Counted from the first letter of the stretch, positions 15,332-56,333 are shown. The stretch: 64,000 bases of DNA from Candidatus Collierbacteria bacterium UBA2277 (GCA_002347045.1 DDWV01000001.1:487201-551200); one strand, 5' to 3'. Notes: generated by a model not told the origin, from the letters alone. Numbers and translations are program-made.

Positions 15332-16087
15332 TTAATCGATTAATGTTCCCTCAACGACTAGTCGTCTAAGAGTCGTTCCCGGAGGAACACAGGTAACAAG
15401 CTTAAAGGTTTTGTTTGAGTAATTTTGCTTTAAGACCCACAGATCTGTTGGCTTAACTTCCACAGTGTTTGTGACTCGGTAGGTATATTCTTTGTCTTTG
15501 TACTTTACAAAAATATCTGAACCTGCTTTAAGTTTTGGAAGAGTGGAAAATATGGTGGTGTATTTTTTGGGGTCAAAGAACTGTGGAAGGGTTGAGTGAC
15601 CAAAGACGACTGGAGAACCATACTGACCCGGGAGGGCAGTCTGCGGATAATGTACTAAGTGTTTTGTGAGGTCTTCATCAAAAAGGCTAGTTACAACATT
15701 TTCTAAGCCAAGAGAGGGTATTGAGAGTGTGTAGGTGTCAGGAATATCTCCTTGGTCTTCTGATCGATCTACAGGGGAAGAAAAGGAATCGTTTTTTACA
15801 CTGCCAGGAAACCAACTACTGGCCTTTGTGTAGTCGACTCCAGACAAAATGAGAGGTTCTTGATCGTCGCTGGCTTTTGATTCGTAATAGACAGGGGATA
15901 GTAGGCCTGAGTCTCTGTTTAGAAACTGGACATCCTTAAACTGATAACTAACCACTGGGTAGGCGATAGCACCGAGAATTCCAAGACCAAGAGCAGAGAC
16001 TAGTGTAGGAACTGTTTTAAGATATATAGGAATACGCCTACCCGGGTGCGGATCTGAAGCCGTAGCCTTTTTGTAACTATAGAGCAT
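15332..16087 (-). CDS. Sortase-family transpeptidase (membrane anchored)
   Basis: 251 aa with an N-terminal TM segment, a VVFGHSTL active-site His region, and an LVTCVPPGTTLRRLVV motif carrying the catalytic TLxTC cysteine. Confidence 0.8.
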   Translation of the reverse strand: MLYSYKKATASDPHPGRRIPIYLKTVPTLVSALGLGILGAIAYPVVSYQFKDVQFLNRDSGLLSPVYYESKASDDQEPLILSGVDYTKASSWFPGSVKNDSFSSPVDRSEDQGDIPDTYTLSIPSLGLENVVTSLFDEDLTKHLVHYPQTALPGQYGSPVVFGHSTLPQFFDPKKYTTIFSTLPKLKAGSDIFVKYKDKEYTYRVTNTVEVKPTDLWVLKQNYSNKTFKLVTCVPPGTTLRRLVVEGTLID

Positions 16088-40772: not shown

Positions 40773-42419
40773 TTAACTAACATTAGGATCTTCGATGACT
40801 TCATCGGCGTCTCCCAAAACTTTACGCCAGTTGCCAAGCTTACCAAAAAGACTGGTAACGTCGGCAAATTGCTTAACCTTGAGAAGATAAGCTAGCCAGA
40901 AGTATACAGCAAGACCGATAAAACTTGCGGTCGCTGTAAGAATTAGAAGGGGAACTGTTCGGGTGGTATCAAAAACAAATTGATCAAGTAGACGCATTGG
41001 AATCCAGAGAGAAAATGCTGTAAGGATACTGACAAAAAATATTTTTAGCATTTCTCTTGTGATGCCTAGGTTGGGAAGACGAGAACGAATGACAAGATAT
41101 AGTACTAAAAAGTTTATGGTGTTTGATGCACTCATGGCAAGACTCATACCAAGGACGCCCCAGTCGAGTGTTTTGGTAAAGAAATATGAAGAAGCAACAA
41201 ATATAACAAGAGTGAAAAGATTAATAAGTAGGGGTGTTCTAGTGTCTTTTTTGGCATAAAAAGCACGAGTAAGGAGTTGAACGGCAGCTTGGGGAACAAT
41301 AGAGAAGGAGAAGATAGCGAGAGCTTTTCCAGTGAGCAAAGTTGCTTCCCAGGGGAAATTTCTGGCACCAAAGATGATACGAACAATGGGAACTCTTAGA
41401 ATTAGGATCAAAATCGCTGCCGGAAAACAAAAGAAGAACATCTGGAGAGTGGTTTTTCCGAGAGTAATGGCAAATTTTGTTTGATCTTTACTGTCGGCTT
41501 CCTCAGCTAAAGTGGGAAATGAAGCCTGTCCAAGTGAGACGCCAAAAAGAGATATAGGGAGGACGTACACTTGACGGGCAAAATTGAAGACTGTAAACGA
41601 CCCTGCTGATAGAGCTGAGGCAAGATTTAGAGAAACAATTCTCTCTACTTGAACTAAAGCAAGCGAAATAGTTCTTGGAGGCATTAGTTGAAGCATGTTG
41701 ATAACCCCTTTGTGCTTTGGACTGAAGCTAAATTTGGGACAAAAACCCGCTTGATAAGCTGATGGAAGCTGAATAATAACGTGAAGAAAAGCTCCAAAAA
41801 TTACACCAATGGCAGCGGCGTAGATGCCAAGAGATGGAGTAAGCAAGAGAATACCAAGAATTGTGCCGAGGTTGTAAAAAAGTGGCGCGATGGCAGGCAC
41901 TAAAAAACGACGGTGTGCTTGAAGCACCCCTGTAAGAAACGAGGAAAAAGTAAAGATAATCTGGGCGACAGACATAATTCTAATCAGATTGACCATAAGG
42001 TCGAGCTGTTCGCCAGAGTAGTGTGAGATAAGTTTGGACAGCGGACGGGCAAAGATGATAATTAAAGCCGTAAATAAAAATAGTATTAGCGAAACCGAGG
42101 TTAGTGCTACGTTGGCCATGCGATTGGCTTTTTTGGAGGACTTTTTTAGATACTCCTGATATATGGGAATGAAGGCGGCCGAGACGGCGCCAACTACAAG
42201 AAGCTGAAAAACGGTATCGGGAATAATGAAAGCAGAAAAATAAATGTCGAGATTCCCTTCGAGACCACCAAAAAATCTAGCGGCCAAAAGACGATTCCTG
42301 ATAAGCCCTAGAAGGGCAGATAACAGGAACGATGCAGCAATGATGGTAGCAGCCGAGAGAATACTTGAACTTTTACGATTTAAGATCTCTTGTGACTTTG
42401 TTATTAATTTTTGAACCAC
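40773..42419 (-). CDS. murJ: Lipid II flippase MurJ/MviN
   Basis: 548 aa, polytopic with about 14 TM helices, and a conserved MurJ N-terminal region (LLGLIRNRLLAARFFGGLEGNLDIYFSAFIIPD). Confidence 0.85.
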   Translation of the reverse strand: MVQKLITKSQEILNRKSSSILSAATIIAASFLLSALLGLIRNRLLAARFFGGLEGNLDIYFSAFIIPDTVFQLLVVGAVSAAFIPIYQEYLKKSSKKANRMANVALTSVSLILFLFTALIIIFARPLSKLISHYSGEQLDLMVNLIRIMSVAQIIFTFSSFLTGVLQAHRRFLVPAIAPLFYNLGTILGILLLTPSLGIYAAAIGVIFGAFLHVIIQLPSAYQAGFCPKFSFSPKHKGVINMLQLMPPRTISLALVQVERIVSLNLASALSAGSFTVFNFARQVYVLPISLFGVSLGQASFPTLAEEADSKDQTKFAITLGKTTLQMFFFCFPAAILILILRVPIVRIIFGARNFPWEATLLTGKALAIFSFSIVPQAAVQLLTRAFYAKKDTRTPLLINLFTLVIFVASSYFFTKTLDWGVLGMSLAMSASNTINFLVLYLVIRSRLPNLGITREMLKIFFVSILTAFSLWIPMRLLDQFVFDTTRTVPLLILTATASFIGLAVYFWLAYLLKVKQFADVTSLFGKLGNWRKVLGDADEVIEDPNVS

Positions 42420-42746: not shown

Positions 42747-43292
42747 GTGGCTACTAAGCAAGGTGTTTCTAGTATAAATTTATTACCTAAAGATAGTTTT
42801 GAGTTCTCTACGACAGGGAAGCTTTTAAAGTGGATAACAACAGCGGGACGAGTTTTGGTAGTTTTAACTGAGTTTGTAGTTCTCTTGGCCTTTGGTTCAA
42901 GATTTTATTTTGATAAGAAGCTTGACGATCTTGGAGAGGTGATAGTTCAGAAACAAGCTCAGGTTATGACTTACTCCGAGATAGAGACAGATATTCGAAA
43001 GATTTTGGCAAAACAACGACAAGTTGAGATATACGAAAAATCTGGTTTGGGTTTCTCAGAAAAAATAAACAGTTTAACTAATATCCTACCGGCAGGAACT
43101 TCTCTGGACAGCTTTAATCTGAACAATGGATTGCTAGTAATAGAAGGAAAGGCTCAGTCGGAGTATGGATTTGCTCAGTTTTTAACCGGGATAAAAAAAA
43201 TGCCTGGAGTAGCAATGATAAACATGAAAGACACAAACTTTGATCAGACAACTGGTGGAGTGAAGTTTAATATTCAAATTAGCTATAAATAA
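42747..43292 (+). CDS. PilN-like type IV pilus assembly protein
   Basis: 181 aa with an N-terminal INLLPKD motif, the hallmark PilN INLLP, followed by a TM helix and a periplasmic domain. Confidence 0.6.
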   Translation: MATKQGVSSINLLPKDSFEFSTTGKLLKWITTAGRVLVVLTEFVVLLAFGSRFYFDKKLDDLGEVIVQKQAQVMTYSEIETDIRKILAKQRQVEIYEKSGLGFSEKINSLTNILPAGTSLDSFNLNNGLLVIEGKAQSEYGFAQFLTGIKKMPGVAMINMKDTNFDQTTGGVKFNIQISYK

Positions 43293-43954
43293 TGGCCAAC
43301 TTATTAAGCAACGAAAAATACGCGCTTTACTATCAGAAGATTGGACTTTTGTATAAAAAGCCTGAGATTCGAGCTTCTTTGGAGGTTATATTGTCGGTTT
43401 TTACCGTGATTGTACTAGTGTTTGCGGCTATCAGACCAACGCTAATAAATATTACGTCTTTGCAGAAAAAAATTACCGACCAGGAAGCAGTCAACAAAAA
43501 ATTGGATAATAAAATGGCCCAGCTGATAAATGCCCAGACACAGCTTGAGGTAAACAGGGATAGTCTATATCTATATGATAGTGCAGTACCGGATGGTTTT
43601 TCTTATGGAGATAGCGCAAAAAGAGTTGAGTATTTGGCAAGAAGAAATAATCTGCAAATTGAGTCTCTGACTTTTTCGGGGGTAACTTTGCAAGATGGTG
43701 GAAAGGTAAACGGAGACTGGCTATCTAAGATTAGCGTCCCTTCCACTGACAGCATAATTCAAAACAAAGTGACTTTTACGATAAAGGGAAACCCTGAAGG
43801 CACAATCAATTTTTTGAAACAAATTGAGTCTATGGATCAGCTGGCTATCCTGGGCAGTGCTTCGCTAACAAAGCAAGTTGGCCAGTCGAGACAAAACGAT
43901 TCTTTGAGAGCATCTGGAACACTGACCTTTTATTTTTACTCAACAAGACAATGA
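43292..43954 (+). CDS. PilO-like inner-membrane pilus assembly protein
   Basis: 220 aa with a short cytoplasmic N-terminus, a TM helix, a coiled coil (QKKITDQEAVNKKLDNKMAQLINAQTQLE) and a periplasmic domain. Its start codon overlaps the stop codon of pilN. Confidence 0.45.
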   Translation: MANLLSNEKYALYYQKIGLLYKKPEIRASLEVILSVFTVIVLVFAAIRPTLINITSLQKKITDQEAVNKKLDNKMAQLINAQTQLEVNRDSLYLYDSAVPDGFSYGDSAKRVEYLARRNNLQIESLTFSGVTLQDGGKVNGDWLSKISVPSTDSIIQNKVTFTIKGNPEGTINFLKQIESMDQLAILGSASLTKQVGQSRQNDSLRASGTLTFYFYSTRQ

Positions 43955-44265
43955 AACCACAAAGAACAATATCTTCTTATGTCTTGTTGGTAGGAATCAT
44001 GGGATTGTCTATAATGGGTGGAGTAGTGGCTTATCAGATTTATTCTGCGGCAGTAAAAAGTCAAGTAACCATGGAACAGAGTGCTGCGATTAAACCTATT
44101 GATGGACAGATAGATACTACTGTTATTGAGAGCCTTAGAAATAGGACTGTTATAAATGAGTCAGAGATGCAACAATTATTGACAGAGGTGCTAGAGTCGG
44201 AGCCAGTTGTGGCGACGGAGTCTAGTGCTGTTGAGGCTACAGCTTCAGCAACTATAGAGCCATAA
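43951..44265 (+). CDS. Small bitopic membrane protein with an acidic Ala/Thr-rich C-terminus
   Basis: 104 aa with an N-terminal TM helix. It is translationally coupled to both flanking genes through 4-nt and 1-nt overlaps. Confidence 0.35.
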   Translation: MKPQRTISSYVLLVGIMGLSIMGGVVAYQIYSAAVKSQVTMEQSAAIKPIDGQIDTTVIESLRNRTVINESEMQQLLTEVLESEPVVATESSAVEATASATIEP

Positions 44266-45608
44266 TGAAAAAACAAGGCCTAATGGCCAAGAAAATACCA
44301 ACGGTTTTTGGAATACTGATTCTTTTAGGCGGTCTTGTGGCTGGTGTGATTTTGGTAAACAACCGACAAGGGCTAATCACAAAAGCTGGGCCTACTGAGT
44401 CTCCTAAAAATGTAAAGATTTCTAATCTTGGATCGAACTCTTTTACCGTGAGCTGGACTACCGACACTCCCGTGACTGGTTACTTGAAGTACTCAGAAAA
44501 TCCAGCAAAAATTACCTCACCGGCAGGAGATATCCGTGACCAGATATCTGGAACATCCCAAGGATACACAAACCACTACATAACGGTGACGGGTTTGAGC
44601 CCTGAGAAGACGGTGTATTTTATGATTGGATCCGGATCCCAGATGTATGACGATAATGGAAACCCTTTTGAAGTACGGACAACTAATCAGGTAATAGCAC
44701 CTCCGGAAAATGTGATAACCGGAAAAATTGTTGGAGCAGACGGTACTCCAATAAACGGAGCGATAGTGTATGTAGAAGTTGAGGGCGGTAAAACACTGTC
44801 AGCAATGACGAATACTACTGGAGCTTGGAGACTAAACTTGGCTTCTTCGCGAGACAGTAAAGGGGCGGTGCTTACATATGACGCAAACACTTCACTTGTG
44901 TCCATCTTTGTGCAAGCAGGTATCTCTGGAACAGCAACAGCGGTAACAAATACTAGTAAAACTAAACCTGTGCCAGATATCACCTTGGGAAAAAATCAAA
45001 GTTTTGTAGATTCTACGATCACATCTGAGAGCGCATCTAGTGCCGTGGCTGCAGGAAAAAGCGGAAGTTTCGAAAGCATTGCTGAAGAAGCTGCTCCAGT
45101 AGGAGGTATTGCAGCTACTGAGTCTGGGTCTATGATTGTAATGAATCCTGCTATCAATGGCGAGATTATTGCTACTAGTACTCCTGAGTTTCGAGGTAAA
45201 ACCGCCCCTGGAATTACTATAAAGATCTCTGTTCACTCGCCGATTGAGCTTACACAAGTAATCAAATCGGATAAGAATGGGGACTGGACCTGGACGCCTC
45301 CACAAAAACTAGATCCTGGCTTGCACACGCTAACACTTGAGTTTACTGACGAGAATAACGTTTTCCAGAAAATTGTAAGGACATTTACTGTTTTGGCAGC
45401 TGAGGATACTTTGGGGATGCCTGCTTTTGTAGCTACTCCTTCGTCTGAGATAGCAACTCCATCCGCAATCCCGACTGAAAGCATGCCAGCAACGGTGTCG
45501 AGTGAGTTGGCCGATGCGGGTGGTTTTTCAACGACAATTCTCCTCGGAGTTGCAGGTATTATAATGCTGATATTTGGCAAGGTGTACAAAAACAAGTGGA
45601 AAGATTGA
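44265..45608 (+). CDS. Cell-surface protein with FN3-like and carboxypeptidase-regulatory-like beta-sandwich domains and a C-terminal sorting-signal-like anchor
   Basis: 447 aa with an N-terminal signal/TM segment, NSFTVSWTTDTPVTGYLKYS (FN3-like), and GKIVGADGTPINGAIVYVEV (CarbopepD_reg-like). The C-terminus reads LADAG, then a 19-residue hydrophobic stretch, then KVYKNKWKD. Confidence 0.55.
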   Translation: MKKQGLMAKKIPTVFGILILLGGLVAGVILVNNRQGLITKAGPTESPKNVKISNLGSNSFTVSWTTDTPVTGYLKYSENPAKITSPAGDIRDQISGTSQGYTNHYITVTGLSPEKTVYFMIGSGSQMYDDNGNPFEVRTTNQVIAPPENVITGKIVGADGTPINGAIVYVEVEGGKTLSAMTNTTGAWRLNLASSRDSKGAVLTYDANTSLVSIFVQAGISGTATAVTNTSKTKPVPDITLGKNQSFVDSTITSESASSAVAAGKSGSFESIAEEAAPVGGIAATESGSMIVMNPAINGEIIATSTPEFRGKTAPGITIKISVHSPIELTQVIKSDKNGDWTWTPPQKLDPGLHTLTLEFTDENNVFQKIVRTFTVLAAEDTLGMPAFVATPSSEIATPSAIPTESMPATVSSELADAGGFSTTILLGVAGIIMLIFGKVYKNKWKD

Positions 45609-45674
45609 CGAATGACAAAGAGTTCTTTATAGTGTACTTAAGTAATACTTTATTGGAACGAAAATATATATAGA

Positions 45675-47450
45675 ATGGACGACCAAAATCAAACCAATCA
45701 ATCGTTAGGTCAGAGTACTGTGCCAACAAATGATCCACAGTTTCCTCCAATAGAGTCAGTAGTCTTAAATCAACCCGAAGATATTACACCGTCGGCCACT
45801 CTGCCTCAAAATCCTGCGTTTCCAGAGATGGCGAGTACTGAGCCCGTCACCATGAATGAGTCTTTAGTAACTGAACCTGTGCCGTCTGGACAAGGAAGTG
45901 TTGATTCTATTTCTGAGATGACGCCAGGAACCACTGATGTTTCAACGCCATCTTTACAGACTCCTCCCGTGACAATGGAGTCAAGCGAACCTGCAGAGCC
46001 ACCAATGCCAGAGGCTAAGAAAAAAAGTAAGGTTTTTCCAATAATCGGTGGAGTTGCGGCACTGCTTCTTGTGGTAGGTGTGGCGGGTGCGGCTTACTAT
46101 GTATCAAATCAGCTTTCTACCAGACAAGCAGTGGCGCCTACGGCACCAGAGAGTGAGCCACAGGCGTATGTACTTGAAGGAGGTGGGTCGGGGCAAGTTA
46201 CCATCAAACCGCCGGCGGGAACAACAATTAACATCGTAAGACCGGTGGCTACTGACGATGATGAACCAGCGCCAAAAAAGACACCGACACCAACAAAAGC
46301 GCCAACTCCTAGAAATATACCTGAGGGTACGGGAACTGATGGTTTATACGTGGGAGTTACCTTCAATCCGGGTGATACTGTTTCAGTAGGTGGAACTGTT
46401 TATAAAAAAGATGCTCCTCTGAAAGTTAACGATAAAGGTGTGCTTGAATGTGCGGAAGAAGGATATTATTTATGTACCATTGCTGGAAGCAACGAGTGTT
46501 GCAAGATTGGGAGTCAAACAACTACTGCTGCGATTGGAGGAGATGGGGGAACTTCAGGGGGAAGTACCAGCACAAACTGCATAACTTGGAATGGTTATAT
46601 AGCCAATCCAACACAAGAACAGGAAAGGCAAGTAATATGTAATCCAAATAAAGATAAGTTTAATACGGTTACTTTTTCAGAAGCTTGCGTGGCAAGAGTT
46701 TACTACAACACAGATATTGCAGGCTCTGTAATAGCACTAACAAAAGACGGAGTGGCAACTCCCATGACAAGAATTGACGATAAAAAATGGGACGTAAATG
46801 TAACTCCCGGCACTTATACTATTACTGCTAAACTGGGAAATGAAGACAAAAATGCTATGGGATTTAGGGTACCTAATAGTTCTGGGATTTGTCAGATGTT
46901 TGGAGCTCCATATAATGTAAGTTCATTTTTGCAAGCTTCAACGTTGAAAGCTTTGGGGATAGACTCTGTCACTCAGGTAGATCGCCCTGTGCAGTGCTGG
47001 GGTGACATGATCAAGGGGGCAGACGGGAATACCCGAGGCGAGCTGAACTCTAATTATGACTTTAATGATTTTAGTGTTGTAATTGGTTGCAAGGACGCGG
47101 AGACATCTGTACCAGGTTACTGCGCATTGCTAAGAATCTATAAAAAAGTAAATGGTGTGTATAGTCCGACCCATATGACGACTGCTGATCTTCAAAATAT
47201 GGTGGTTGGGGATACGTACAGACTTACGGTGACAAACAACTTAGAGCTTCTCCCGACTCGTTTTAGAGTGACGATTTCTGGAGTAGTTGGTGGTTGGATG
47301 GATGGTACCTTTAACGCAACAAACAAAAAAATCGTAGAGTACAACGACTTGGTGATTACCTCTCCTGGAACGTATAAGTTTGAAGCTCAGGTTGTGCCAA
47401 TTCCAATGACTGGTGTGAATCAAAAGACAATTGAATATACTGGACAATAA
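45675..47450 (+). CDS. Type-II membrane protein with a disordered Pro/Thr/Glu-rich cytoplasmic N-tail and a Cys-rich extracytoplasmic domain
   Basis: 591 aa with a ~118-aa low-complexity N-tail, KKKSK plus a TM helix, a conserved QLSTRQAVAPTAPESEPQ motif, and about 14 Cys in the ectodomain. Confidence 0.5.
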   Translation: MDDQNQTNQSLGQSTVPTNDPQFPPIESVVLNQPEDITPSATLPQNPAFPEMASTEPVTMNESLVTEPVPSGQGSVDSISEMTPGTTDVSTPSLQTPPVTMESSEPAEPPMPEAKKKSKVFPIIGGVAALLLVVGVAGAAYYVSNQLSTRQAVAPTAPESEPQAYVLEGGGSGQVTIKPPAGTTINIVRPVATDDDEPAPKKTPTPTKAPTPRNIPEGTGTDGLYVGVTFNPGDTVSVGGTVYKKDAPLKVNDKGVLECAEEGYYLCTIAGSNECCKIGSQTTTAAIGGDGGTSGGSTSTNCITWNGYIANPTQEQERQVICNPNKDKFNTVTFSEACVARVYYNTDIAGSVIALTKDGVATPMTRIDDKKWDVNVTPGTYTITAKLGNEDKNAMGFRVPNSSGICQMFGAPYNVSSFLQASTLKALGIDSVTQVDRPVQCWGDMIKGADGNTRGELNSNYDFNDFSVVIGCKDAETSVPGYCALLRIYKKVNGVYSPTHMTTADLQNMVVGDTYRLTVTNNLELLPTRFRVTISGVVGGWMDGTFNATNKKIVEYNDLVITSPGTYKFEAQVVPIPMTGVNQKTIEYTGQ

Positions 47451-47460
47451 CTGAAATAAA

Positions 47461-48129
47461 ATGAAAAATAAAAATAAAAAAATACTCGCAATAATTTTAA
47501 TTTTAGTTATTTTAATATTAGGAGGAGCATCTATTTATATTGCAACACAGCTCTCGACAAGAGAGACTGTAGCTCCAACAGCTCCTGAAAGTAAACCAGC
47601 CGCCTCAGAACCAGATAGCCTTTGGGAAGGATCTGACGCTTGTGTGGTGGATGCCGTGGCTAAAGAGGGGTGTTCGTATAAATATTATTGTCTTACAGAT
47701 TCGTATACTTGTGTGGCCACGAATGGGCTGTATACAAAAACAACCCCTTATACATGGTGTGATGGACCGATCGCTCCACCTCCAACATGTGAAGAAAATT
47801 TGAAAACATACGATACAGGACCCAACACTGGAATGTGTTATGCAACACAAGATAGTTGTGATGCTGCCTGCATAAAACCAGTAATTACTAAAGCACCTAC
47901 CGAAGCCCCGACAGCGGCTCCGACTGCAGTTCCTACAATTATTGTAACTGTAGCACCAACGGCAGCCCCAACTGTGATCGTAACAGCAGCGACAGCAGTG
48001 CCAACGACAGTAGTAACAGTAGCCGCACCAACTGCTTTGCCTGAAGCAGGTATTTTTGATCTTCCAGGAATTGCTGCTTTTGCCGGAGGACTTATACTGG
48101 CTGTGGTTGGAATTCTACTAGCGCTGTAG
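47461..48129 (+). CDS. Small Cys-rich surface protein with an N-terminal TM anchor, a PT/VT-repeat linker and a C-terminal LPEAG-plus-hydrophobic tail
   Basis: 222 aa with an N-terminal TM helix, then QLSTRETVAPTAPESKPA, paralogous to the 45675 gene. It has 10 Cys in about 80 aa and an (A/V)PT repeat linker. The C-terminus is ALPEAGIFDLPGIAAFAGGLILAVVGILLAL. Confidence 0.5.
   Translation: MKNKNKKILAIILILVILILGGASIYIATQLSTRETVAPTAPESKPAASEPDSLWEGSDACVVDAVAKEGCSYKYYCLTDSYTCVATNGLYTKTTPYTWCDGPIAPPPTCEENLKTYDTGPNTGMCYATQDSCDAACIKPVITKAPTEAPTAAPTAVPTIIVTVAPTAAPTVIVTAATAVPTTVVTVAAPTALPEAGIFDLPGIAAFAGGLILAVVGILLAL
47890..48040 (+). repeat. Imperfect short tandem repeats encoding an Ala/Pro/Thr/Val-rich linker
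   Basis: Reiterated ccaac[gt]g..gc.gc / gtaac.gtagc units encode APTEAPTAAPTAVPTIIVTVAPTAAPTVIVTAATAVPTTVVTVAAPTA. Confidence 0.6.
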
Positions 48130-48131
48130 AC

Positions 48132-49382
48132 ATGAAGATAGCCATAATTGGAGGTGGCTTTACCGGTCTTAGTTGTGCATATTCCCTATTGGAGCGAAAA
48201 ATTGACGTAGCTTTGTTTGAGAACGATGAGTGTTTGGGGGGATTGGCAGGCGGGTTTCGACAGGCTGATTGGAAATGGGACCTGGAGTTTTTTTATCATC
48301 ATATTTTTACAAACGACAGAGATATTATGAGGTTGGCAGAGAAATCTGACTGGAAAGTGAAAATTTCTAGTCCTTTGACAACTAGCTTTGTAAACGGAGT
48401 AGAGACACAACTTGACTCACCGTCGTCTTTGATGCGGTTTAACAAGATGAGTATTGGGGGAAGATTGAGGATGGGAGCTGGACTGGCTGTGTTGAAGTTT
48501 ATCCCCGATGGGTTATTTTTAGAAAAGTATTTGGTAGTGAAGTTTTTACCTAAGCTAATTGGAGAGGAAGGATACAAACTTGTATGGGAAAAACTTTTGA
48601 AAGCAAAGTTTGGACCTTTTTATGACAGAGTAAACATGGCATGGTTCTGGACTCGAGTAGCAAAACGAACAAAAAAATTGGGCTATTTTGACGGAGGATT
48701 TGTGAAGCTAGCGGAAATGATCGGAGAAAAGATCGAGAGAATGGGAGGGCGCCTAAACATGAATACTAATATAGAAAAGATTGAGGCGATCGGAGAAAAG
48801 TGGAGTGTAGATGGGCAGATATTTGATGGGGTAGTGATTACGAATCCTGCCCCAGTTGCAAAAAAAATGCTGGGGGGTATAAAGATTGATTTACATAAAA
48901 TTGATTATCTTTGGGGGCAAACTTTGATAATAGAACTTGAGAAAAAACTTATTAAGGGATACTGGATGAATATTTTAGAGAATGACTGGCCGTTTTTGGT
49001 GGCCGTGGAACACACAAATATGATTGACAAGTCCAGATACGGAAACAAAGAAATACTATATCTGGGAAATTACCTTGCGGATAATAATAGTCAGCTGAGT
49101 ATGAGTAAGAATGAGATAATCAAGCTTTATACACCTTTTCTTAAAAAAATTAATCCTAGATTTGAAAGGAAATGGATAAAAGACAGTAGTCTATTTCGAA
49201 AACCATTTGCCCAACCAGTGTTTCCTGTTAATTATTCAGACCAGTTATTAAAGCCAAAAACGAAGTATAAGGGGCTCTATTTTGCGAACATGAGCATGGT
49301 GTACCCATTTGATCGTGGAACAAACTACGCAGTTAGAATGGGAGAAGATGTAGCTAAACAGATACAATTAGATTTAGAATAA
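48132..49382 (+). CDS. FAD-dependent oxidoreductase, UDP-galactopyranose mutase-like or amine-oxidase-like
   Basis: A Rossmann N-terminus IAIIGGGFTGL, a GGLAGGF motif, and YHHIFTNDRDIM, which resembles the Glf motif HIFHTNDKYIW. At 416 aa it is close to the UGM-family length. Confidence 0.5.
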   Translation: MKIAIIGGGFTGLSCAYSLLERKIDVALFENDECLGGLAGGFRQADWKWDLEFFYHHIFTNDRDIMRLAEKSDWKVKISSPLTTSFVNGVETQLDSPSSLMRFNKMSIGGRLRMGAGLAVLKFIPDGLFLEKYLVVKFLPKLIGEEGYKLVWEKLLKAKFGPFYDRVNMAWFWTRVAKRTKKLGYFDGGFVKLAEMIGEKIERMGGRLNMNTNIEKIEAIGEKWSVDGQIFDGVVITNPAPVAKKMLGGIKIDLHKIDYLWGQTLIIELEKKLIKGYWMNILENDWPFLVAVEHTNMIDKSRYGNKEILYLGNYLADNNSQLSMSKNEIIKLYTPFLKKINPRFERKWIKDSSLFRKPFAQPVFPVNYSDQLLKPKTKYKGLYFANMSMVYPFDRGTNYAVRMGEDVAKQIQLDLE

Positions 49383-49389
49383 AATATCT

Positions 49390-51354
49390 ATGTTTTTTAC
49401 TGACCTATCAATTGTTTTTAGAACCTACTTGATAAGCTTAGTAATTCAACTGCTAACTTGGCCAGTAACTAAGAAAATTTTTGGAAAATTACCTGATGGA
49501 GGTTGGGCCTTGGGAAGAGTGTTTACAAGCTTGTTTGCGGCCGTGGTTATATGGCAGTTGAGCTATCTAGGTCTTTCTTCGAACAACAGTAGTAGCATAT
49601 TTGCTTTGATGACTGTTTTTGGACTAGCTGGACTTTGGCAACTGTATGTCGACGGAGTCAAAAAATATGCGGTTACTCGTTCTATGGCAAAGATTATTGC
49701 CATTGAAGAATATCTTTTTTTAATAGGACTCGGATTAACTGCAATTATTCGTGGACATGCTCCAGAGTTAAACTCACTGGAGAAGTTTATGGATTTTGGA
49801 TTTGTAAAACAGTACTTAGTGTCTCCTTCTCTTCCGGCGATGGATATGTGGCAAGCAGGAAAAAGTATCAACTATTACTCCTTTGGTCATTTTTGGACTA
49901 GCACTTTAATCCGTATCTGGGGAGTTGAGCCGAGTGTGGGATACAACTTGATGTTGGCTTTTATTTTTGGAACATCGATGAGTCTAGTATTTATTTTGTG
50001 CTATACACTGATGGGCAAAAAAAGCTCGCGAGCCTTAACTTTTGGGAGTTTGATAGGGTCAATGTCGGTAATGATAGCCGGAAACAGCCATACCATTTGG
50101 TATCTATTGAAAAACAAGGGCCTGCTAGACTACTGGTATGCAGACGCAACACGATTTATTGCTTTCACAATTCATGAGTTCCCAAGCTATAGTTTTGTGG
50201 TCTCTGATCTTCATGGCCATGTACTTGATTTACCGGTAGTTTTGTCTTTTTTGGTTCTTTTGGTCTTGTGGTTTAGTGAGAGAAAGAAAATTTATGAGGT
50301 ACTTATGGGAGTGTTGTTTGGAGTAATGATGATGACAAACACTTGGGATGTAGCAATTTTTGGATTGGTATTGGTAGTAATGGCGGTGTTAATGCTGTTT
50401 GAGAATCCCAGAGAGATTAAGGCCTTACTATCAATGGCCATGACAATGATAGTGACCGTGTTTTTGGTGACAATGCCATGGTGGTTGTCTTTCCATGCCA
50501 TATCAGATGGAATAGGACTTGTAAAAGAGAGGTCTCCTTTTTGGCAACTTCTTGTGTTGTGGAGCGGAGGAGTAGTAATAAGCGTTTTAGGTTTTGTGAT
50601 GGGAAAGGGTGAAAAAAATAAACTTTTGATTAGAACACTGGCACTTTGCTCAGTTTTCCTAATTGCGATACCTGAGTTTGTTTACGCGAGGGACATTTAC
50701 CCAGACTATCCAAGAGCCAATACTATGTTTAAGCTAACTTACCAGTCGTTTGTAATGATAGGCGTGTTAGCTGGATTTGCTTGGGGAAAGTTGCTGGATA
50801 AAGATAAAAAAATGTTTGTGGGGATGCGGATTTTAGGACTGTTTGTTTTGCTATATATATTTGTAGGGACGATGATTTTTCCGGTTAAAGCATTCCCCTC
50901 TTACTACAAATCATTTGCTAATTATAAAGGACTTAGTGGAGAAAAATGGATGGTAGATACAATGCCCGAATATTATCATGCAGCAAAATATCTAGACAAA
51001 AATCGAGACGGGAAGAATTTGGTAGAAGCTGTGGGAAACAGTTATACCCTATTTAACGCAGTGTCAGTGTTTTCCGGCGTACCGACAGTTCAAGGATGGA
51101 GAGTGCATGAGTGGTTGTGGCGAGGGGGGTACGACACAGTGCTTGAAAGACAAGATGATGTAATTGAAATATACCAAGGTCAAAGCGTAGAGAAGGCGCA
51201 AAAATTAATTAAGAAATATAATGTTGGCTGGATATTGGTTGGACAAAATGAGACTGTTTCTTACAAAATTAATGAGGAAAAGCTGTGGCAAATTGGTGAA
51301 AAAGTCTGGCAAGATGGCAATACTTATATAATAAAAGTAGAACTACCCTACTGA
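49390..51354 (+). CDS. DUF2298-like polytopic membrane protein (putative GT-C-fold glycosyltransferase)
   Basis: 654 aa with at least 12 TM helices in the N-terminal 500 aa and a soluble C-terminal domain. The architecture is typical of DUF2298 / ArnT-PMT-like proteins common in CPR and archaea. Confidence 0.5.
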   Translation: MFFTDLSIVFRTYLISLVIQLLTWPVTKKIFGKLPDGGWALGRVFTSLFAAVVIWQLSYLGLSSNNSSSIFALMTVFGLAGLWQLYVDGVKKYAVTRSMAKIIAIEEYLFLIGLGLTAIIRGHAPELNSLEKFMDFGFVKQYLVSPSLPAMDMWQAGKSINYYSFGHFWTSTLIRIWGVEPSVGYNLMLAFIFGTSMSLVFILCYTLMGKKSSRALTFGSLIGSMSVMIAGNSHTIWYLLKNKGLLDYWYADATRFIAFTIHEFPSYSFVVSDLHGHVLDLPVVLSFLVLLVLWFSERKKIYEVLMGVLFGVMMMTNTWDVAIFGLVLVVMAVLMLFENPREIKALLSMAMTMIVTVFLVTMPWWLSFHAISDGIGLVKERSPFWQLLVLWSGGVVISVLGFVMGKGEKNKLLIRTLALCSVFLIAIPEFVYARDIYPDYPRANTMFKLTYQSFVMIGVLAGFAWGKLLDKDKKMFVGMRILGLFVLLYIFVGTMIFPVKAFPSYYKSFANYKGLSGEKWMVDTMPEYYHAAKYLDKNRDGKNLVEAVGNSYTLFNAVSVFSGVPTVQGWRVHEWLWRGGYDTVLERQDDVIEIYQGQSVEKAQKLIKKYNVGWILVGQNETVSYKINEEKLWQIGEKVWQDGNTYIIKVELPY

Positions 51355-52418
51355 GAACCATTGAGACGGTTGCTCAAATACTTCTTTAAGGCGTCCCAAC
51401 TATTATCTTTGGGGATAAGCACCCACTCACCTTTATATTTATATGTGGGAGGATTGTATAGTATCGCAACCCCGTTTTCGTCTGGGAGAGTGGAAAGAGT
51501 GATTGATCTCATCTGACTGTTTTGAGTGTCTAGAGCTATTTTGGCCAGAGTTGGATATAGACTCTGACTAAGGTTGGTATCGAGATTTTTGTCCAAAATT
51601 GTAAAAAACTGGTCAAGCTTTTCTTTGTTGAGGAGAAAAGCTGGTGTAAGCATTTTTTGTTTTAGAGCCGAGATAATTTGTTGTTGTCTGCGGGACCTGG
51701 CAAAGTCAGTACCTTCATCTCCTATTGAGTGACGCGATCTAACAAACTTTAGGGCAGTGTCACCGTTCATGTGAGCTGACCCTGTAGCAAAAACAAGTGT
51801 TTCGTATCGGCTAGACACAGGTATAGCGTTTTCTTTGCCTGGAAGAGGAAAATTTGGATCGACAAATCCAGGATTAACGTCTATATCCACCCCTCCTATG
51901 AGGTCGATAGTTTCTTTAAAAATAGTGAAGTTTATGACTGCAGTGTAATGAATGGGAAGACCTAAGTCTTCTAAAATTGCACCTTGAGCCATTTTTATGC
52001 CACCCCCTGGGCTGGCCTTTTCTCCGTAGTGATAAGCAGTATTAATTTTGGCTTGGAGTGAAGGAACCCAAAGGTCTCGAGGAATACTTATCAAAGCTGG
52101 AGTTTTTGAGTTGTGATTGTAAGAAAGAACAATAACTGTGTCTGAAAGATTTGGAGAGTCTGTACCTTCGCCACGTATACCGAGTAATAAAAAGTTTGTG
52201 GTGCCACTAGTGTTGTCGAGATTCTCAACGGGAGTGCCAAAAAAACTAAGAAGGTCTTGAGGCTTTAAATTGAGGCCAGAGAGTATCTCGAGTCCCTTTG
52301 CACCTGCAATTCCTAATATACTGAGAAAAAACAAAACGAGAATGGCCACAAGATGAGTTTTTATGAATGCGGCAGTACGAATAAAAAGACGGCGTGGTCT
52401 GATGTGACTTATTTTCAT
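51348..52418 (-). CDS. LytR-CpsA-Psr (LCP) family cell-wall glycopolymer ligase
   Basis: 356 aa with an N-terminal TM helix and the LCP core motif NFLLLGIRGEG...DTVIVLSYN...ALISIPRDLWV. Its 3' end overlaps DUF2298 convergently by 7 nt. Confidence 0.8.
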   Translation of the reverse strand: MKISHIRPRRLFIRTAAFIKTHLVAILVLFFLSILGIAGAKGLEILSGLNLKPQDLLSFFGTPVENLDNTSGTTNFLLLGIRGEGTDSPNLSDTVIVLSYNHNSKTPALISIPRDLWVPSLQAKINTAYHYGEKASPGGGIKMAQGAILEDLGLPIHYTAVINFTIFKETIDLIGGVDIDVNPGFVDPNFPLPGKENAIPVSSRYETLVFATGSAHMNGDTALKFVRSRHSIGDEGTDFARSRRQQQIISALKQKMLTPAFLLNKEKLDQFFTILDKNLDTNLSQSLYPTLAKIALDTQNSQMRSITLSTLPDENGVAILYNPPTYKYKGEWVLIPKDNSWDALKKYLSNRLNGSQ

Positions 52419-55313: not shown

Positions 55314-56333
55314 GTGATCGAAACTGTAAAAGAGAGCCAAAAAAAAGAATACAACAACTTAGCAAAACACCCTTTGCAGTCTTGGGAGTGGGGAGAGTTT
55401 CGTAAGCAAACTGGAGTGATGGTTTCGCGTTTTATACAAACTAAAAAAAATAACTCAAAAGAAGTATTTCAGGTTACTTGGCACACAGTTCCAAAAACAG
55501 GTCTAAAGATTGGGTACTGTCCAAAGTCATCGGTCCCAGATAATGAAGTTTTGGCAGCTGTACTTAAAGAGGGAAAGATAAGAAAGGCCATCTTTGTTAA
55601 GTTTGAACCAAATGAAAAAGTGAGTGTCGAAAATAATAAGCGGTTGGAAAACGTTTCTAAAAAGTTTAATTGGGTGAAGGGAAAACCTTTGTTTACAAAG
55701 TATTCTTTTCAGCTAGACATTTCAAAGAATGAAGAAGAACTGTTGGCGAATATGCACCAGAAAACAAGGTACAACTTACGACTGGCTGAAAAGAAAGGGG
55801 TAAAAATTGTAGAAGATAATAGCTTTGAGGGATTTGAAGAGTACTGGAAACTAATGGAGGAAACGACTAAGAGGCAAGGATTTTATGCCCACACAAAAGG
55901 CTATCACAAAAAAATGTGGAAGGAGATGACTAAGTCTGGAATGGGTCACTTGTTTAAAGCAGTTTACGAAGGAAAAACACTGACTACCTGGATGATTTTT
56001 TTATTAAACAATATCGTTTATTATCCATATGGAGCCTCAAGTAATGAAAATCGTGAAGTAATGGCGAATAATTTAATGATGTGGGAGGTGATCAATTTTG
56101 GAAAAAGACAGAAGTGTGTTTTGTTTGATATGTGGGGAAGCATGGGACCTGAGCCAGATCAAAAAGACCCTTGGTATGGATTCCATAAGTTTAAACAGGG
56201 GTATGGAGCTGAGTTGGTGGAGTTTATAGGTAGTTATGATTTGGTTGTGTCACCTAGAATGTATATGGCTTATCAGCTAGTCGATATAGTTAGGTGGTTT
56301 GTCTTAAAGTTATCGGCGAAAGTGAGAAGTTGA
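55314..56333 (+). CDS. FemAB-family peptidoglycan interpeptide-bridge aminoacyltransferase
   Basis: 339 aa with RYNLRLAEKKGV and the YYPYGASS region typical of FemX/FemA/MurM. It has a GTG start. Confidence 0.72.
   Translation: MIETVKESQKKEYNNLAKHPLQSWEWGEFRKQTGVMVSRFIQTKKNNSKEVFQVTWHTVPKTGLKIGYCPKSSVPDNEVLAAVLKEGKIRKAIFVKFEPNEKVSVENNKRLENVSKKFNWVKGKPLFTKYSFQLDISKNEEELLANMHQKTRYNLRLAEKKGVKIVEDNSFEGFEEYWKLMEETTKRQGFYAHTKGYHKKMWKEMTKSGMGHLFKAVYEGKTLTTWMIFLLNNIVYYPYGASSNENREVMANNLMMWEVINFGKRQKCVLFDMWGSMGPEPDQKDPWYGFHKFKQGYGAELVEFIGSYDLVVSPRMYMAYQLVDIVRWFVLKLSAKVRS

What the first reader, a model, noticed from the sequence alone, without database searches (positions are those of the whole stretch)
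45675..48129. Two adjacent paralogous Cys-rich type-II membrane proteins share a conserved post-anchor motif (QLSTR[QE][AT]VAPTAPES[EK]P)
Both proteins have an N-terminal TM anchor (N-in) followed immediately by the same 18-residue motif, then Cys-rich ectodomains (about 14 and 10 Cys). The DNA of the motif has diverged while the protein is conserved, indicating selection. That would fit a processing site, a recognition tag for the PilN/PilO-like machinery or the sortase, or a stalk. The first protein adds a 118-aa disordered Pro/Thr/Glu-rich cytoplasmic tail. The second has a PT/VT tandem-repeat linker and ends in LPEAG plus a hydrophobic tail with no basic residues, a second sorting-like signal. 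Dense cysteines in an extracytoplasmic domain imply disulfide or metal chemistry, unusual for a presumably anaerobic small-genome symbiont.
Basis: seen in the sequence. Interest (0 to 1): 0.6.

Follow-up and report, generated by a model that had tools for sequence, protein, structure and literature searches.

The report
Proline box behind CPR membrane anchors
Two neighbouring surface-protein genes of an uncultured ultra-small (CPR/Microgenomates) bacterium share a 12-residue proline-rich "box" just after their membrane anchor, and the same box heads hundreds of sortase-type surface proteins in that lineage, which points to an undescribed sorting, processing or glycosylation signal.

Summary
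The motif is real. A (45675-47450) and B (47461-48129) share QLSTRxxVAPTAPESxP straight after an N-terminal membrane helix: 15/17 residues identical, 10 of 13 differing codons synonymous. They are not paralogues, because only about 27 residues align, and the Cys counts are 11 and 9, not 14 and 10.

The motif is the local copy of a lineage-wide N-terminal module: Lys-rich start, about 21-residue Gly/Ala-containing helix, Gln/Arg spacer, then V-A-P-x-A-P-x-S-x-P-x-A. A profile finds 650 protein clusters, always at the N-terminus. About 89% of members of 150 aa or more end in LPx[AST]G plus a hydrophobic tail without basic residues. No Pfam or NCBIfam model covers the module, and three literature searches found nothing relevant.

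A and B fill the variable slot of a conserved Microgenomates operon: PilN-like, PilO-like, small TM protein, FN3 wall protein, A, B, FAD oxidoreductase, DUF2298, with LCP beside it. In other lineages a PMT protein O-mannosyltransferase sits next to the B-like gene.

Best model (about 0.35): an uncleaved, proline-stiffened, probably O-glycosylated stalk recognised at the membrane. Rivals are a processing site after the invariant Ala, a docking tag, or a passive linker. Box proteins almost always have an odd number of cysteines, so probably one free thiol each. Function is untested.

The parts
42747..43292 (+). PilN-like bitopic membrane protein with an N-terminal INLLP motif; first gene of the operon
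   Evidence: Pfam PilN E=7e-7, 29.6 bits, above the gathering score. Orthologues lie in the same position in related loci.
43292..43954 (+). PilO-like 220-aa bitopic protein; its start overlaps the end of the PilN-like gene
   Evidence: No Pfam hit for the window copy. Orthologues carry weak or faint PF04350 PilO hits. Synteny is conserved.
43951..44265 (+). 104-aa single-TM protein of unknown family; conserved cassette member
   Evidence: No Pfam or NCBIfam family. Orthologues at 45-57% identity in the loci.
44265..45608 (+). 447-aa FN3/Big_13/CarboxypepD_reg surface protein. It has an N-terminal TM and a degenerate post-TM element (NNRQGLITKAGPTESPKN), and a C-terminal LADAGG + TM + basic tail (KVYKNKWKD).
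   Evidence: Pfam hits. C-terminal signal found by regex. It is the most conserved cassette protein, 29-69% identity across loci.
45675..47450 (+). Gene A: bitopic membrane protein. In order: conserved head, disordered P/T/E-rich cytoplasmic tail, KKKSK, TM helix, box, Cys-rich variable region, two beta-sandwich domains.
46035..46109 (+). A transmembrane helix (about aa121-145), near-invariant across the family (..LLVVGVAGAAYYVSN)
   Evidence: AF2 helix 123-145. Mean column conservation 0.77, against 0.20 for the Cys-rich region.
46110..46166 (+). A spacer QLSTRQA (aa146-152) plus box VAPTAPESEPQA (aa153-164; nt 46131-46166)
   Evidence: A152, A154, P155, A157, P158, S160, P162 and A164 conserved in 90% or more of sequences; conservation 0.83. 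AF2 gives pLDDT <50 and no secondary structure here.
47115..47399 (+). A C-terminal Ig-like domain (aa481-575). Its first strand carries the conserved lone Cys483 (VGAC-type context).
47461..48129 (+). Gene B: N-terminal signal-anchor + box + Cys-rich module + PT/VT linker + LPEAG + hydrophobic tail
47482..47544 (+). B N-terminal hydrophobic helix (aa8-28), preceded by MKNKNKK
   Evidence: Sequence. AF2 helix 4-32.
47548..47604 (+). B spacer QLSTRET (aa30-36) plus box VAPTAPESKPAA (aa37-48; nt 47569-47604)
47641..47871 (+). B Cys-rich module (aa61-137, 9 Cys). C61 is the family-conserved first Cys after the box. The module is homologous to an internal module of A-family proteins from other genomes.
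   Evidence: Cys positions. (C61 conserved in 90% or more). (39% identity over 85 aa to P0040, E=1e-12).
48037..48126 (+). B C-terminal sorting-like signal: LPEAG (aa193-197) + IFDLPGIAAFAGGLILAVVGILLAL, with no basic tail
   Evidence: L193, G197, P202 invariant. (110/150 family members have LPx[AST]G; none has K/R in the last 8 aa).
48132..49382 (+). FAD-dependent oxidoreductase (amine-oxidase/NAD_binding_8 fold); starts 2 nt after B's stop
   Evidence: Pfam and NCBIfam NF005560. Conserved position.
49390..51354 (+). DUF2298 / chlor_Arch_YYY polytopic membrane protein; last gene of the + strand run
   Evidence: Pfam E=5e-83, TIGR03662 E=9e-119. It occupies the position that PMT holds in other lineages.
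51348..52418 (-). LytR-CpsA-Psr (LCP) phosphotransferase, convergent with the operon
   Evidence: Pfam E=7e-31. Syntenic in most related loci.
15332..16087 (-). Sortase, the only one in the window and the candidate enzyme for the LPEAG/LADAG signals. It is directly downstream of a 727-aa protein without any family.
   Evidence: Pfam Sortase E=3e-22; NCBIfam sortase_fam above its cut-off. The 727-aa neighbour has no Pfam match above the gathering cut-off (only a weak sub-threshold Baseplate_J hit, E=7e-4) and no meaningful PDB match.

Best explanation
The shared peptide is the window's copy of a lineage-specific N-terminal module used by surface, adhesin-like proteins of Woesebacteria/Collierbacteria-type Microgenomates. 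The module runs: Lys-rich start, about 21-residue Gly/Ala-containing membrane helix, 6-10-residue Gln/Arg/Ser/Thr spacer, then the invariant 'VAP box' V-A-P-x-A-P-x-S-x-P-x-A.

Proposed mechanism, step by step.
1. The module inserts N-in through Sec. This is inferred from the charge distribution.
2. Signal peptidase I does not remove it, because every small residue of the box has Pro at +1 or at -3. The sequence fact is shown; the consequence is inferred.
3. The module therefore keeps the cargo on a short, unstructured, proline-stiffened stalk at a fixed distance from the membrane. The fixed spacing and lack of predicted structure are shown.
4. On that stalk the invariant Ser, and often the Thr at box position 4, is O-glycosylated by a polytopic membrane glycosyltransferase encoded beside the cargo genes. 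That enzyme is PMT in most lineages. In this operon it would be the co-transcribed DUF2298 protein with its FAD oxidoreductase, possibly with the adjacent LCP enzyme. This step is inferred from composition and synteny only.
5. The cargo sits next to the PilN/PilO-like and FN3 membrane proteins of the same operon.
6. B-type proteins are then processed at their tail-less LPx[AST]G signal by the sortase. A-type proteins lack such a signal and carry a conserved cytoplasmic tail, so they stay anchored by the module.
For: Distribution and position.
- 650 clusters at 50% identity match the module profile at E<=1e-3, and 262 at E<=1e-10. The 150 best all match at residues 1 to about 79.
- 134 of 150 have the strict box, starting at aa 34-53. 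P3, P6 and A12 are invariant, S8 is 133/134 and P10 131/134.
- In a DNA-pattern scan of one genome for each of 185,579 species, all 36 in-frame Patescibacteria hits lie shortly after a hydrophobic N-terminal segment (8-12 aa in the sequences printed). The other roughly 83 hits, mostly from other phyla and often high-GC, are out of frame or have no TM.
- The spacer between the end of the hydrophobic run and V1 is 6-7 aa in 112 of 130 sequences.

Selection.
- 10 synonymous against 3 non-synonymous codon differences between A and B.
- In the A family the TM (0.77) and the motif (0.83) are the most conserved parts. The Cys-rich region scores 0.20.
- A conserved helix argues against an ordinary disposable signal peptide.

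Pro pattern and structure.
- Sequences show the Pro positions. AF2 gives no structure for the box, pLDDT <50.

Association with wall sorting.
- 104 of 117 members of 150 aa or more end in LPx[AST]G plus a hydrophobic tail.
- Cargo domains are adhesin/pilin-like: DUF11/CLIPPER, RrgB_K2N_iso_D2, VWA, fn3, SdrD_B.

Synteny.
- PilN, PilO, TM, FN3, A-like and B-like are conserved across distant genomes.
- A PMT-family gene lies directly next to the B-like gene, or one small ORF away, in 9 loci. The CPR PMT profile hits yeast Pmt1 at E=3e-23 and keeps the DE motif.
- In the window lineage, FADox-DUF2298 follows B with gaps of 2 nt and 7 nt, and LCP is adjacent.

Precedent.
- Bacterial PMT prefers Pro-rich Ser/Thr acceptors, using a WW-like loop (PMC12331936).
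- In Actinomyces an LCP enzyme glycosylates a sortase substrate (PMC6381275).
Against: - There is no experimental datum of any kind.
- No PMT homologue lies in the 64-kb window.
- I could not show that DUF2298 is a glycosyltransferase.
- The PMT synteny could be explained by the long PT-rich linkers of B-like proteins rather than by the box.
- Actinobacterial PMT needs no strict sequon, so glycosylation alone does not explain the invariant V1, A2, A5 and A12, nor the conserved helix.
- Box position 4 is Asn as often as Thr.
- The invariant terminal Ala, with Pro absent at +1 (0/203) and nearly absent at +2 (2/203) but common from +3, looks like a protease site.
- The same cargo start (WDC.KY.F.V) follows either the box or a canonical SSA/TSA signal-peptidase site in related proteins. 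That favours cleavage after the box.
- All known sortase substrates lose their signal peptide.
Confidence: 0.35

Rival explanations
1. Extended signal peptide or pro-region. The module is removed by cleavage after the invariant Ala12 of the box (P-x-A|), either by a divergent signal peptidase or by a dedicated protease. The mature protein would start a few residues before the conserved free Cys. On this view the box is a recognition and spacing element for that protease.
For: - A12 is invariant although the DNA search pattern did not require it.
- Pro is 0/203 at +1 and 2/203 at +2, against 18% at +3 and a background of 8.6% (P about 1e-8). +1 is Ala in 90 of 203.
- Variable cargo starts 3-14 aa later.
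- The homologous cargo start 'WDC' follows either the box (L119, P0165) or a canonical S-S-A / T-S-A site (L068, L058).
- B-type N-termini look like Gram-positive signal peptides: net charge +2 to +3, then a hydrophobic core.
- Every known sortase substrate has a cleaved signal peptide (established knowledge).
Against: - Pro at -3 violates von Heijne's (-3,-1) rule.
- The site is about 20 residues from the helix, far for signal peptidase I.
- The helix is far more conserved than signal-peptide cores usually are.
- A-type proteins carry a conserved 100-170-aa cytoplasmic tail, which would be discarded.
- No LepB-like gene is syntenic.
Confidence: 0.28
2. Docking or sorting tag without modification. 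Helix plus box is recognised as a unit by a membrane partner, either the PilN/PilO-like/104-aa/FN3 proteins of the operon or the sortase. That partner routes box proteins to a dedicated assembly site, as the YSIRK-G/S signal does for staphylococcal LPXTG proteins.
For: - The whole module is conserved, including Gly/Ala positions of the helix and the fixed spacing.
- Box genes lie directly after the PilN-PilO-TM-FN3 genes in all cassette loci, while the cargo varies.
- There is a strong association with the tail-less LPx[AST]G signal.
Against: - Box proteins also occur far from the cassette (L102, L112, L012, L035 and others).
- No sortase is syntenic with the cassette.
- There is no evidence of contact, and no multimer prediction was available.
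- A-like proteins of distant lineages sit in the same cassette without the box.
Confidence: 0.2
3. Passive linker. The box is only a proline spacer inherited with a successful N-terminal cassette and spread by recombination among surface-protein genes. It has no specific recognition.
For: - The region is unstructured.
- Surface-protein genes here clearly exchange modules.
- PT-rich linkers are common in the same proteins.
Against: - Eight of twelve positions are invariant or nearly so across 134 non-redundant clusters whose helix and spacer differ.
- A versus B differ by synonymous changes, so this is not recent gene conversion.
- The box is never found internally or repeated: 0 of 211 proteins have two boxes. 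Ordinary PT linkers in the same proteins are not conserved.
Confidence: 0.08

Closest known systems
YSIRK-G/S and KxYKxGKxW signal peptides of Gram-positive LPXTG proteins
   Same: A conserved N-terminal sequence element that co-occurs with C-terminal sortase signals and is thought to route surface proteins to a particular secretion or assembly site.
   Different: Those motifs lie in the n-region, before the hydrophobic core, and the peptide is cleaved. The VAP box lies after the helix and shares no sequence with them. No NCBIfam signal-peptide model hits these proteins.
PMT-dependent O-mannosylation of Pro-rich Ser/Thr stretches in actinobacterial secreted proteins (Apa, LpqH; MtPMT, PMC12331936)
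   Same: The acceptor is a disordered Pro/Ala/Ser/Thr segment close to the N-terminal export signal. The enzyme is a membrane GT-C. A true PMT homologue lies next to box genes in 9 related loci.
   Different: The window has DUF2298 rather than PMT beside the genes. Nothing has been shown experimentally in Patescibacteria, and no paper was found linking them to PMT.
Actinomyces oris GspA-LcpA-SrtA pathway (PMC6381275)
   Same: An LPXTG surface protein is glycosylated with the help of an LCP enzyme before the sortase anchors it. LCP and sortase are both present here, and LCP is syntenic.
   Different: No sequence similarity to GspA was tested or seen. No GspA modification site could be compared with the box, because only the abstract of that paper was read. 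The LCP here may simply attach wall polymers.
Canonical LPXTG cell wall sorting signal (TIGR01167)
   Same: B and most box proteins end in LPx[AST]G followed by a hydrophobic segment, and a sortase is encoded in the genome.
   Different: No positively charged tail: 0 of 150 have K/R in the last 8 aa. Position 4 is mostly Ala or Ser. The TIGR01167 model is not among the families hit.
Type IV pilins with PilM/N/O alignment proteins
   Same: Bitopic N-in proteins with a conserved N-terminal helix, encoded beside PilN/PilO-like genes.
   Different: No G/A at -1, no Phe/Glu5 signature, no prepilin-peptidase site, and no pilin family hit.
Sec signal peptides cleaved by signal peptidase I
   Same: Positively charged n-region and a hydrophobic core.
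   Different: The core is of TM length and conserved. The 22 residues after it offer no site that obeys the (-3,-1) rule with Pro excluded from -3 to +1.

Membership tests
Signal peptidase I-cleaved Sec signal peptide | Positively charged n-region followed by a hydrophobic h-region | tested here: met
   MKNKNKK + 21 hydrophobic residues in B; KKKSK + helix in A. Net charge is +2 or +3 in the first 14 aa of 126 of 150 members.
Signal peptidase I-cleaved Sec signal peptide | c-region with small residues at -1 and -3, and no Pro from -3 to +1, within a few residues of the h-region | tested here: not met
   In the box, A2 and A5 are followed by Pro, and S8 and A12 have Pro at -3. A12 lies about 20 aa from the helix. 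This is a rule-based reading only; no predictor such as SignalP was available.
Canonical LPXTG cell wall sorting signal | LPXTG-like pentapeptide followed by a hydrophobic segment | tested here: met
   LPEAG + 25 hydrophobic or small residues in B. LPx[AST]G in 110 of 150 members.
Canonical LPXTG cell wall sorting signal | Positively charged C-terminal tail | tested here: not met
   B ends ...VVGILLAL. 0 of 150 members have K/R in the last 8 residues. By contrast the FN3 protein at 44265-45608 has KVYKNKWKD.
Canonical LPXTG cell wall sorting signal | Cleavage and wall attachment by a sortase | not testable with these tools
   A sortase gene is present at 15332-16087. Its specificity is unknown.
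PMT (GT39) O-mannosylation acceptor | Disordered Pro-rich segment carrying Ser/Thr on an exported protein | tested here: met
   Box composition; S8 is 133 of 134. AF2 pLDDT <50. The MtPMT preference is described in PMC12331936.
PMT (GT39) O-mannosylation acceptor | A PMT enzyme in the same organism | tested here: inconclusive
   PMT is adjacent to box genes in 9 related loci, but none lies in this 64-kb window.
PMT (GT39) O-mannosylation acceptor | Hexose on the Ser/Thr | not testable with these tools
   Needs mass spectrometry.
Type IV pilin (class III signal peptide) | Short basic leader ending in Gly/Ala, then Phe/Met and Glu at +5 of the hydrophobic helix | tested here: not met
   The N-termini of A, B and 150 relatives lack G|F..E. 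No pilin or N_methyl family hit.
Bacterial lipoprotein (lipobox) | L-[AS]-[GA]-C at the end of the h-region | tested here: not met
   No Cys occurs before the box in 138 of 139 proteins. The first Cys is 3-14 aa after the box, about 25-35 aa from the helix.
YSIRK-G/S or KxYKxGKxW signal peptide | Motif inside the n-region, before the hydrophobic core | tested here: not met
   The n-regions are simple Lys/Asn runs. No NCBIfam model hit.
   BLASTP aligns only 27 aa. However, B's Cys module is homologous to a module of A-family proteins in other genomes.

The most novel reading that the evidence does not exclude
The VAP box would be a previously unrecognised N-terminal sorting signal that defines a Patescibacteria-specific surface-assembly pathway. 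A PilN/PilO-like membrane scaffold, a GT-C/LCP glycosylation step and a sortase acting on tail-less LPx[AST]G signals would cooperate. Paired A subunits (membrane-anchored, cytoplasmic tail, one free Cys on the first strand of the last Ig domain) and B subunits (wall-anchored, one free Cys on a strand just after the box) would be covalently coupled. The result would be a modular, fast-evolving adhesin spanning from membrane to wall.
Probability: 0.12. Interest if true: 0.85.

Novelty: new variant of a known kind. Interest (0 to 1): 0.6.

Why it matters
Patescibacteria (CPR) make up a large share of bacterial diversity and live attached to other cells, yet how they build their surface is almost unknown. 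None of the Microgenomates discussed here is, to my knowledge, available in culture.

A position-locked 12-residue box heads at least 650 non-redundant surface proteins. It is coupled to an atypical sortase signal and to a conserved PilN/PilO-FN3-glycosyltransferase-LCP gene frame. That gives three things:
- a simple sequence handle to list the surface proteome of these organisms from metagenomes;
- a concrete, testable candidate for a new sorting, processing or O-glycosylation signal;
- a defined hypervariable 'slot' of adhesin genes that probably mediates host contact.

The odd-cysteine rule also predicts one reactive thiol per protein, which can be tested directly.

If the box turns out to be only a conserved stalk, the result is still useful for annotation. 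All these proteins are currently 'hypothetical'.

Tried and rejected
- The third word-indexed protein search, with a 44-aa module profile, returned only 6 short fragments. The exhaustive HMM search replaced it.
- A and B against Pfam and NCBIfam gave nothing meaningful. PF23714 Rv3627c_N at E=2e-4 is only a TM-region similarity below the cut-off.
- AF2 of B left the Cys-rich module unpredicted (pLDDT 33-45), so no fold search was run on it.
- DUF2298 as a GT-C enzyme could not be shown. hhalign against the CPR PMT profile gave probability 1%. PDB sequence searches were empty. Literature search found 2 irrelevant papers.
- The 727-aa protein next to the sortase as a possible PilM: no Pfam or PDB support.
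- A LepB homologue near the genes: none in the window or the loci.
- DsbA/DsbB/VKOR: none among the 34 of 55 window ORFs scanned against Pfam.
- Rejected on sequence grounds: type IV pilin signal, lipobox, YSIRK, rhomboid-type site (P4 not hydrophobic), and the box as a Lys acceptor for sortase polymerisation. Lys at box positions 9 and 11 is frequent but not conserved, and window A has ESEPQA.
- Recent gene conversion between A and B is rejected, because 16 of 51 nt differ and most changes are synonymous.
- Literature searches for Patescibacteria/CPR with sortase, LPXTG or PMT found nothing relevant.


Full report
**1. What is at the coordinates**

The region holds two adjacent + strand ORFs. 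A is 45675-47450 (591 aa) and B is 47461-48129 (222 aa).

15 of 17 residues and 35 of 51 nt are identical. By codon, 4 are identical, 10 differ synonymously and 3 non-synonymously.

BLASTP of A against B aligns only 27 residues around the motif (E=2e-8), and nothing else aligns. The box occurs nowhere else in six-frame translations of the window.

AF2 models give a helix at 123-145 in A and helices at 4-32 and 202-221 in B. The motif itself is unstructured, with pLDDT <50.

A has 11 Cys and B has 9. So the motif, the anchors, the long disordered tail of A and the LPEAG end of B are confirmed. 'Paralogous' and the Cys counts are not.

**2. The two protein families**

B's relatives (P0002-P0011) keep three things and vary the rest:
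- the N-terminus, MNKKKILAIVLVLVVLLLGGASIYVATQLSTRQAVAPTAPESKPKA;
- the C-terminus, ILPE[TA]GIFDLPGIAAFGGGLLLAVVGILLAL;
- a variable middle of Cys-rich modules and DUF11/CLIPPER repeats.

A's relatives (P0012-P0052) have this layout:
- a conserved head, MDDQNQTNQPL;
- a variable Pro/Thr-rich tail and a KPKxK patch;
- a near-invariant helix plus motif;
- a hypervariable Cys-rich stretch;
- a beta-sandwich domain;
- a conserved C-terminal Ig-like domain ending FEAQVSTTP.

Mean column conservation by region is head 0.75, tail 0.37, helix 0.77, motif 0.83, Cys-rich 0.20, sandwich 0.39 and C-domain 0.60.

Both proteins are 'hypothetical protein' in public records.

**3. The motif is lineage-wide and tied to its position**

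36 matches are in frame in Patescibacteria contigs: Woesebacteria, Collierbacteria, 'Microgenomates group', 'Patescibacteria group', and several MAGs titled Pseudomonadales or Gammaproteobacteria. In every one of the 36 the box lies shortly after a Lys-rich start plus hydrophobic segment, 8-12 aa in the sequences printed. The other roughly 83 matches, mostly from other phyla and often high-GC, are out of frame or have no helix. My own estimate of chance matches for this pattern is about 50.

The helix and spacer differ between families (..YYVSNQLSTRQA..IYVATQLSTRxA..FTAIRLYQLRQEP..IAQRQRQxxGP..ITNRTATQTP), but the box does not. The final Ala, which the pattern did not require, is invariant.

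An exhaustive HMM search with the module profile against 1.84 billion cluster representatives gave these results:
- 650 proteins at E<=1e-3 and 262 at E<=1e-10.
- The best 150 all match at residues 1 to about 79.
- 134 of 150 carry the strict box, starting at aa 34-53 (median 40).
- P3, P6 and A12 are invariant, S8 is 133/134 and P10 131/134.
- No protein has two boxes.
- The spacer is 6-7 residues in 112 of 130.

**4. What the box travels with**

110 of the 150 best hits end in LPx[AST]G plus a hydrophobic tail, as do 104 of the 117 that are 150 aa or longer. None has K/R in the last 8 residues.

Recognisable cargo domains are adhesin- or pilin-like: DUF11/CLIPPER in 19 members, RrgB_K2N_iso_D2 in 10, plus VWA, fn3, SdrD_B and PKD. 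No Pfam or NCBIfam model covers the N-terminal module, and the LPXTG-anchor model TIGR01167 is not among the families hit.

A sortase is encoded at 15332-16087.

**5. Genomic frame**

From 42747 to 51354 eight + strand genes run with overlaps or gaps of 66 nt or less:
- PilN-like (Pfam above threshold, INLLP start);
- a 220-aa PilO-like protein;
- a 104-aa TM protein;
- a 447-aa FN3/Big_13 protein with LADAGG + TM + basic tail;
- A;
- B;
- an FAD oxidoreductase;
- DUF2298.

LCP is convergent with this run. MurJ lies just upstream and two FemAB genes lie further downstream.

The frame MurJ | S20 | PilN | PilO | TM | FN3 | [box proteins] | FADox-DUF2298 | LCP is conserved in other Woese- and Collierbacteria. 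The slot holds from 2 to 5 A/B-type genes; L128 has A, B, A', A, B.

In more distant genomes the same PilN-PilO-TM-FN3-A-like-B-like order holds. The B-like protein keeps the box. The A-like protein instead has a different post-helix element of the LVQRNQDIREQAA type.

In those distant genomes the gene next to the B-like gene is a PMT-family protein O-mannosyltransferase in 9 loci (PF02366 + PF13231 + PF16192). A profile of these proteins hits yeast Pmt1 (6p25) at E=3e-23 and keeps the loop-1 Asp-Glu.

Box proteins also occur away from the cassette. Examples are L102 and L112, in the same genomes as L014 and L074, and a second recurrent gene pair next to a MacB-type ABC transporter.

**6. How it may work**

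*What is shown:*
- a conserved helix, a fixed short spacer and an unstructured 12-mer with invariant Pro, Ser and Ala;
- selection at the protein level;
- co-occurrence with tail-less LPx[AST]G signals;
- synteny with PilN/PilO-like, FN3, PMT or DUF2298, and LCP genes.

*What I infer, as the best model (0.35):*
- The module is a signal-anchor that signal peptidase I does not cut, because each small residue of the box has Pro at +1 (A2, A5) or at -3 (S8, A12).
- It acts as a proline-stiffened stalk, and its Ser8 (and Thr4) are O-glycosylated by the neighbouring polytopic enzyme.
- Two precedents support this. Bacterial PMT selects Pro-rich Ser/Thr peptides (PMC12331936). In Actinomyces an LCP enzyme glycosylates a sortase substrate (PMC6381275).

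*Weak points of the best model:*
- No PMT lies in the window.
- DUF2298 could not be linked to GT-C enzymes.
- The PT linkers of B-like proteins could be the real PMT substrates.
- Glycosylation does not explain the invariant Val and Ala residues or the conserved helix.

*Main rival (0.28): cleavage after Ala12.*
- Pro is absent at +1 (0/203) and nearly absent at +2 (2/203), yet 18% at +3.
- The same cargo start, WDC.KY.F.V, follows either the box or a canonical SSA/TSA site in related proteins.
- Against it: Pro at -3, the distance from the helix, and the conserved helix and cytoplasmic tail of A.

*Other rivals:* a docking tag for the cassette proteins or the sortase (0.20), and a passive linker (0.08).

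**7. Cysteines**

Cys counts among box proteins range from 1 to 47. They are odd in 100 of 105 B-like and 33 of 34 A-like proteins (binomial P about 1e-32; the sequences are related, so this overstates independence).

No Cys precedes the box. The likely unpaired residue differs by type:
- In B-like proteins it is the first Cys, 3-14 aa after the box, at the start of a strand-like C-x-[LV]-x-F-x-V segment. This is C61 in window B. In minimal 138-170-aa members such as P0011 it is the only Cys.
- In A-like proteins it is the 'VGAC' at the first strand of the last domain. This is C483 in window A.

Modules with even Cys numbers are exchanged between the A and B families. Window B aa64-148 matches P0040 aa440-524 at 39% identity (E=1e-12). 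P0008 against P0038 shows 88% over 32 aa. P0012 and P0013 differ only in the module right after the box.

This supports disulfide-bonded modules plus one free thiol per protein. What that thiol does is unexplained; an A-B disulfide is one possibility.

**8. Comparison with known systems and novelty**

By position and association the box behaves like a sorting or processing signal, comparable to YSIRK, the lipobox, or the class III signal peptide. It fails the defining features of each, as listed in the membership tests.

Three literature searches for Patescibacteria/CPR with sortase, LPXTG or PMT found nothing on it.

I rate it a new variant of a known kind, namely N-terminal sorting, processing or modification signals of monoderm surface proteins. 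Its biochemical role is unproven.

Noticed in passing
Window A (Cys at aa 259-483) and B (Cys at aa 61-137); P0002-P0202: Box proteins have an odd number of cysteines: 133 of 139, with counts from 1 to 47. One conserved lone Cys sits 3-14 aa after the box in B-like proteins and in 'VGAC' at the start of the last domain in A-like proteins. This implies one free thiol per protein.
   Followed up: partly
P0012 vs P0013, P0022 vs P0023, P0039 vs P0042, P0040 vs P0043; window 47641-47871: Cys-rich modules are swapped in and out right after the box while the flanks stay near-identical, and the modules are shared between the A and B families. This looks like a fast-evolving modular adhesin repertoire.
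   Followed up: partly
L008, L019, L025, L035, L044, L057, L062, L063, L076, L078, L079, L084, L089, L108, L118: MAG records titled 'uncultured Pseudomonadales' or 'Gammaproteobacteria' carry box-bearing proteins of the Patescibacteria type, and several of them (e.g. L008, L019, L057, L079, L108, L118) carry the cassette itself. One isolate is even named HK-STAS-PATE-16. The record titles look taxonomically wrong.
   Followed up: no
L012, L035, L101 (also L063, L078, L089): A second recurrent gene pair: a tail+TM protein followed by a box protein ending LPQTGPEDWLNWLKAGLVTLGIGAVLLLLL. In three loci it lies next to genes that by their N-terminal sequences look like a membrane-fusion protein, an ABC ATPase and a MacB/FtsX-type permease (not checked against Pfam).
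   Followed up: no
Window 16089-18272 (-) and 15332-16087 (-): The sortase gene starts 2 nt after a 727-aa ORF that has no Pfam family above cut-off (only a weak sub-threshold Baseplate_J hit, E=7e-4) and no PDB relative. It is possibly a dedicated partner of the sortase.
   Followed up: partly
L118:4341-5846, L103:2549-3979, L108:4128-5393, L068:3645-5150 and others; P0045: A different and apparently more widespread post-helix element in CPR proteins: helix, then L-V-Q-x-x-Q-[DE]-[IV]-R-x-x-A-A. The QLSTRQA spacer of A and B looks like a variant of it, with the VAP box as an add-on.
   Followed up: no
Window 44265-45608: The FN3/Big_13 protein has a second kind of C-terminal signal (LADAGG + TM + KVYKNKWKD; IPVAG/TPESG/VPDAG in orthologues) that does have a basic tail. 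Two different sorting-signal types therefore coexist with only one sortase seen in the window.
   Followed up: partly
Window 40773-42419, 51348-52418, 55314-57154: MurJ, LCP and two FemAB-family genes flank the operon, so the neighbourhood is a cell-wall assembly region. FemAB products could supply the cross-bridge amine used by the sortase.
   Followed up: no
Window 47400-47450 (A aa576-591): Window A carries 16 extra C-terminal residues (VPIPMTGVNQKTIEYTGQ) beyond the family's usual ...FEAQVSTTP end.
   Followed up: no
Window 46990-47040 (A about aa 440-470): The middle beta-sandwich domain of the A family has a conserved QCW.D...G.....YD.NDF...GY signature. From memory it recalls calcium-binding DxNDF motifs of the DUF4114 type. 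Pfam gave no hit.
   Followed up: no
L053:2504-4927, L068:816-3188, L108:701-3175, L103:4705-7110: The Patescibacteria PMT homologues are about 800 aa, double-length. They have an extra N-terminal polytopic half that weakly resembles GT87 and so may be fused GT-C enzymes. No paper was found linking PMT to Patescibacteria.
   Followed up: partly
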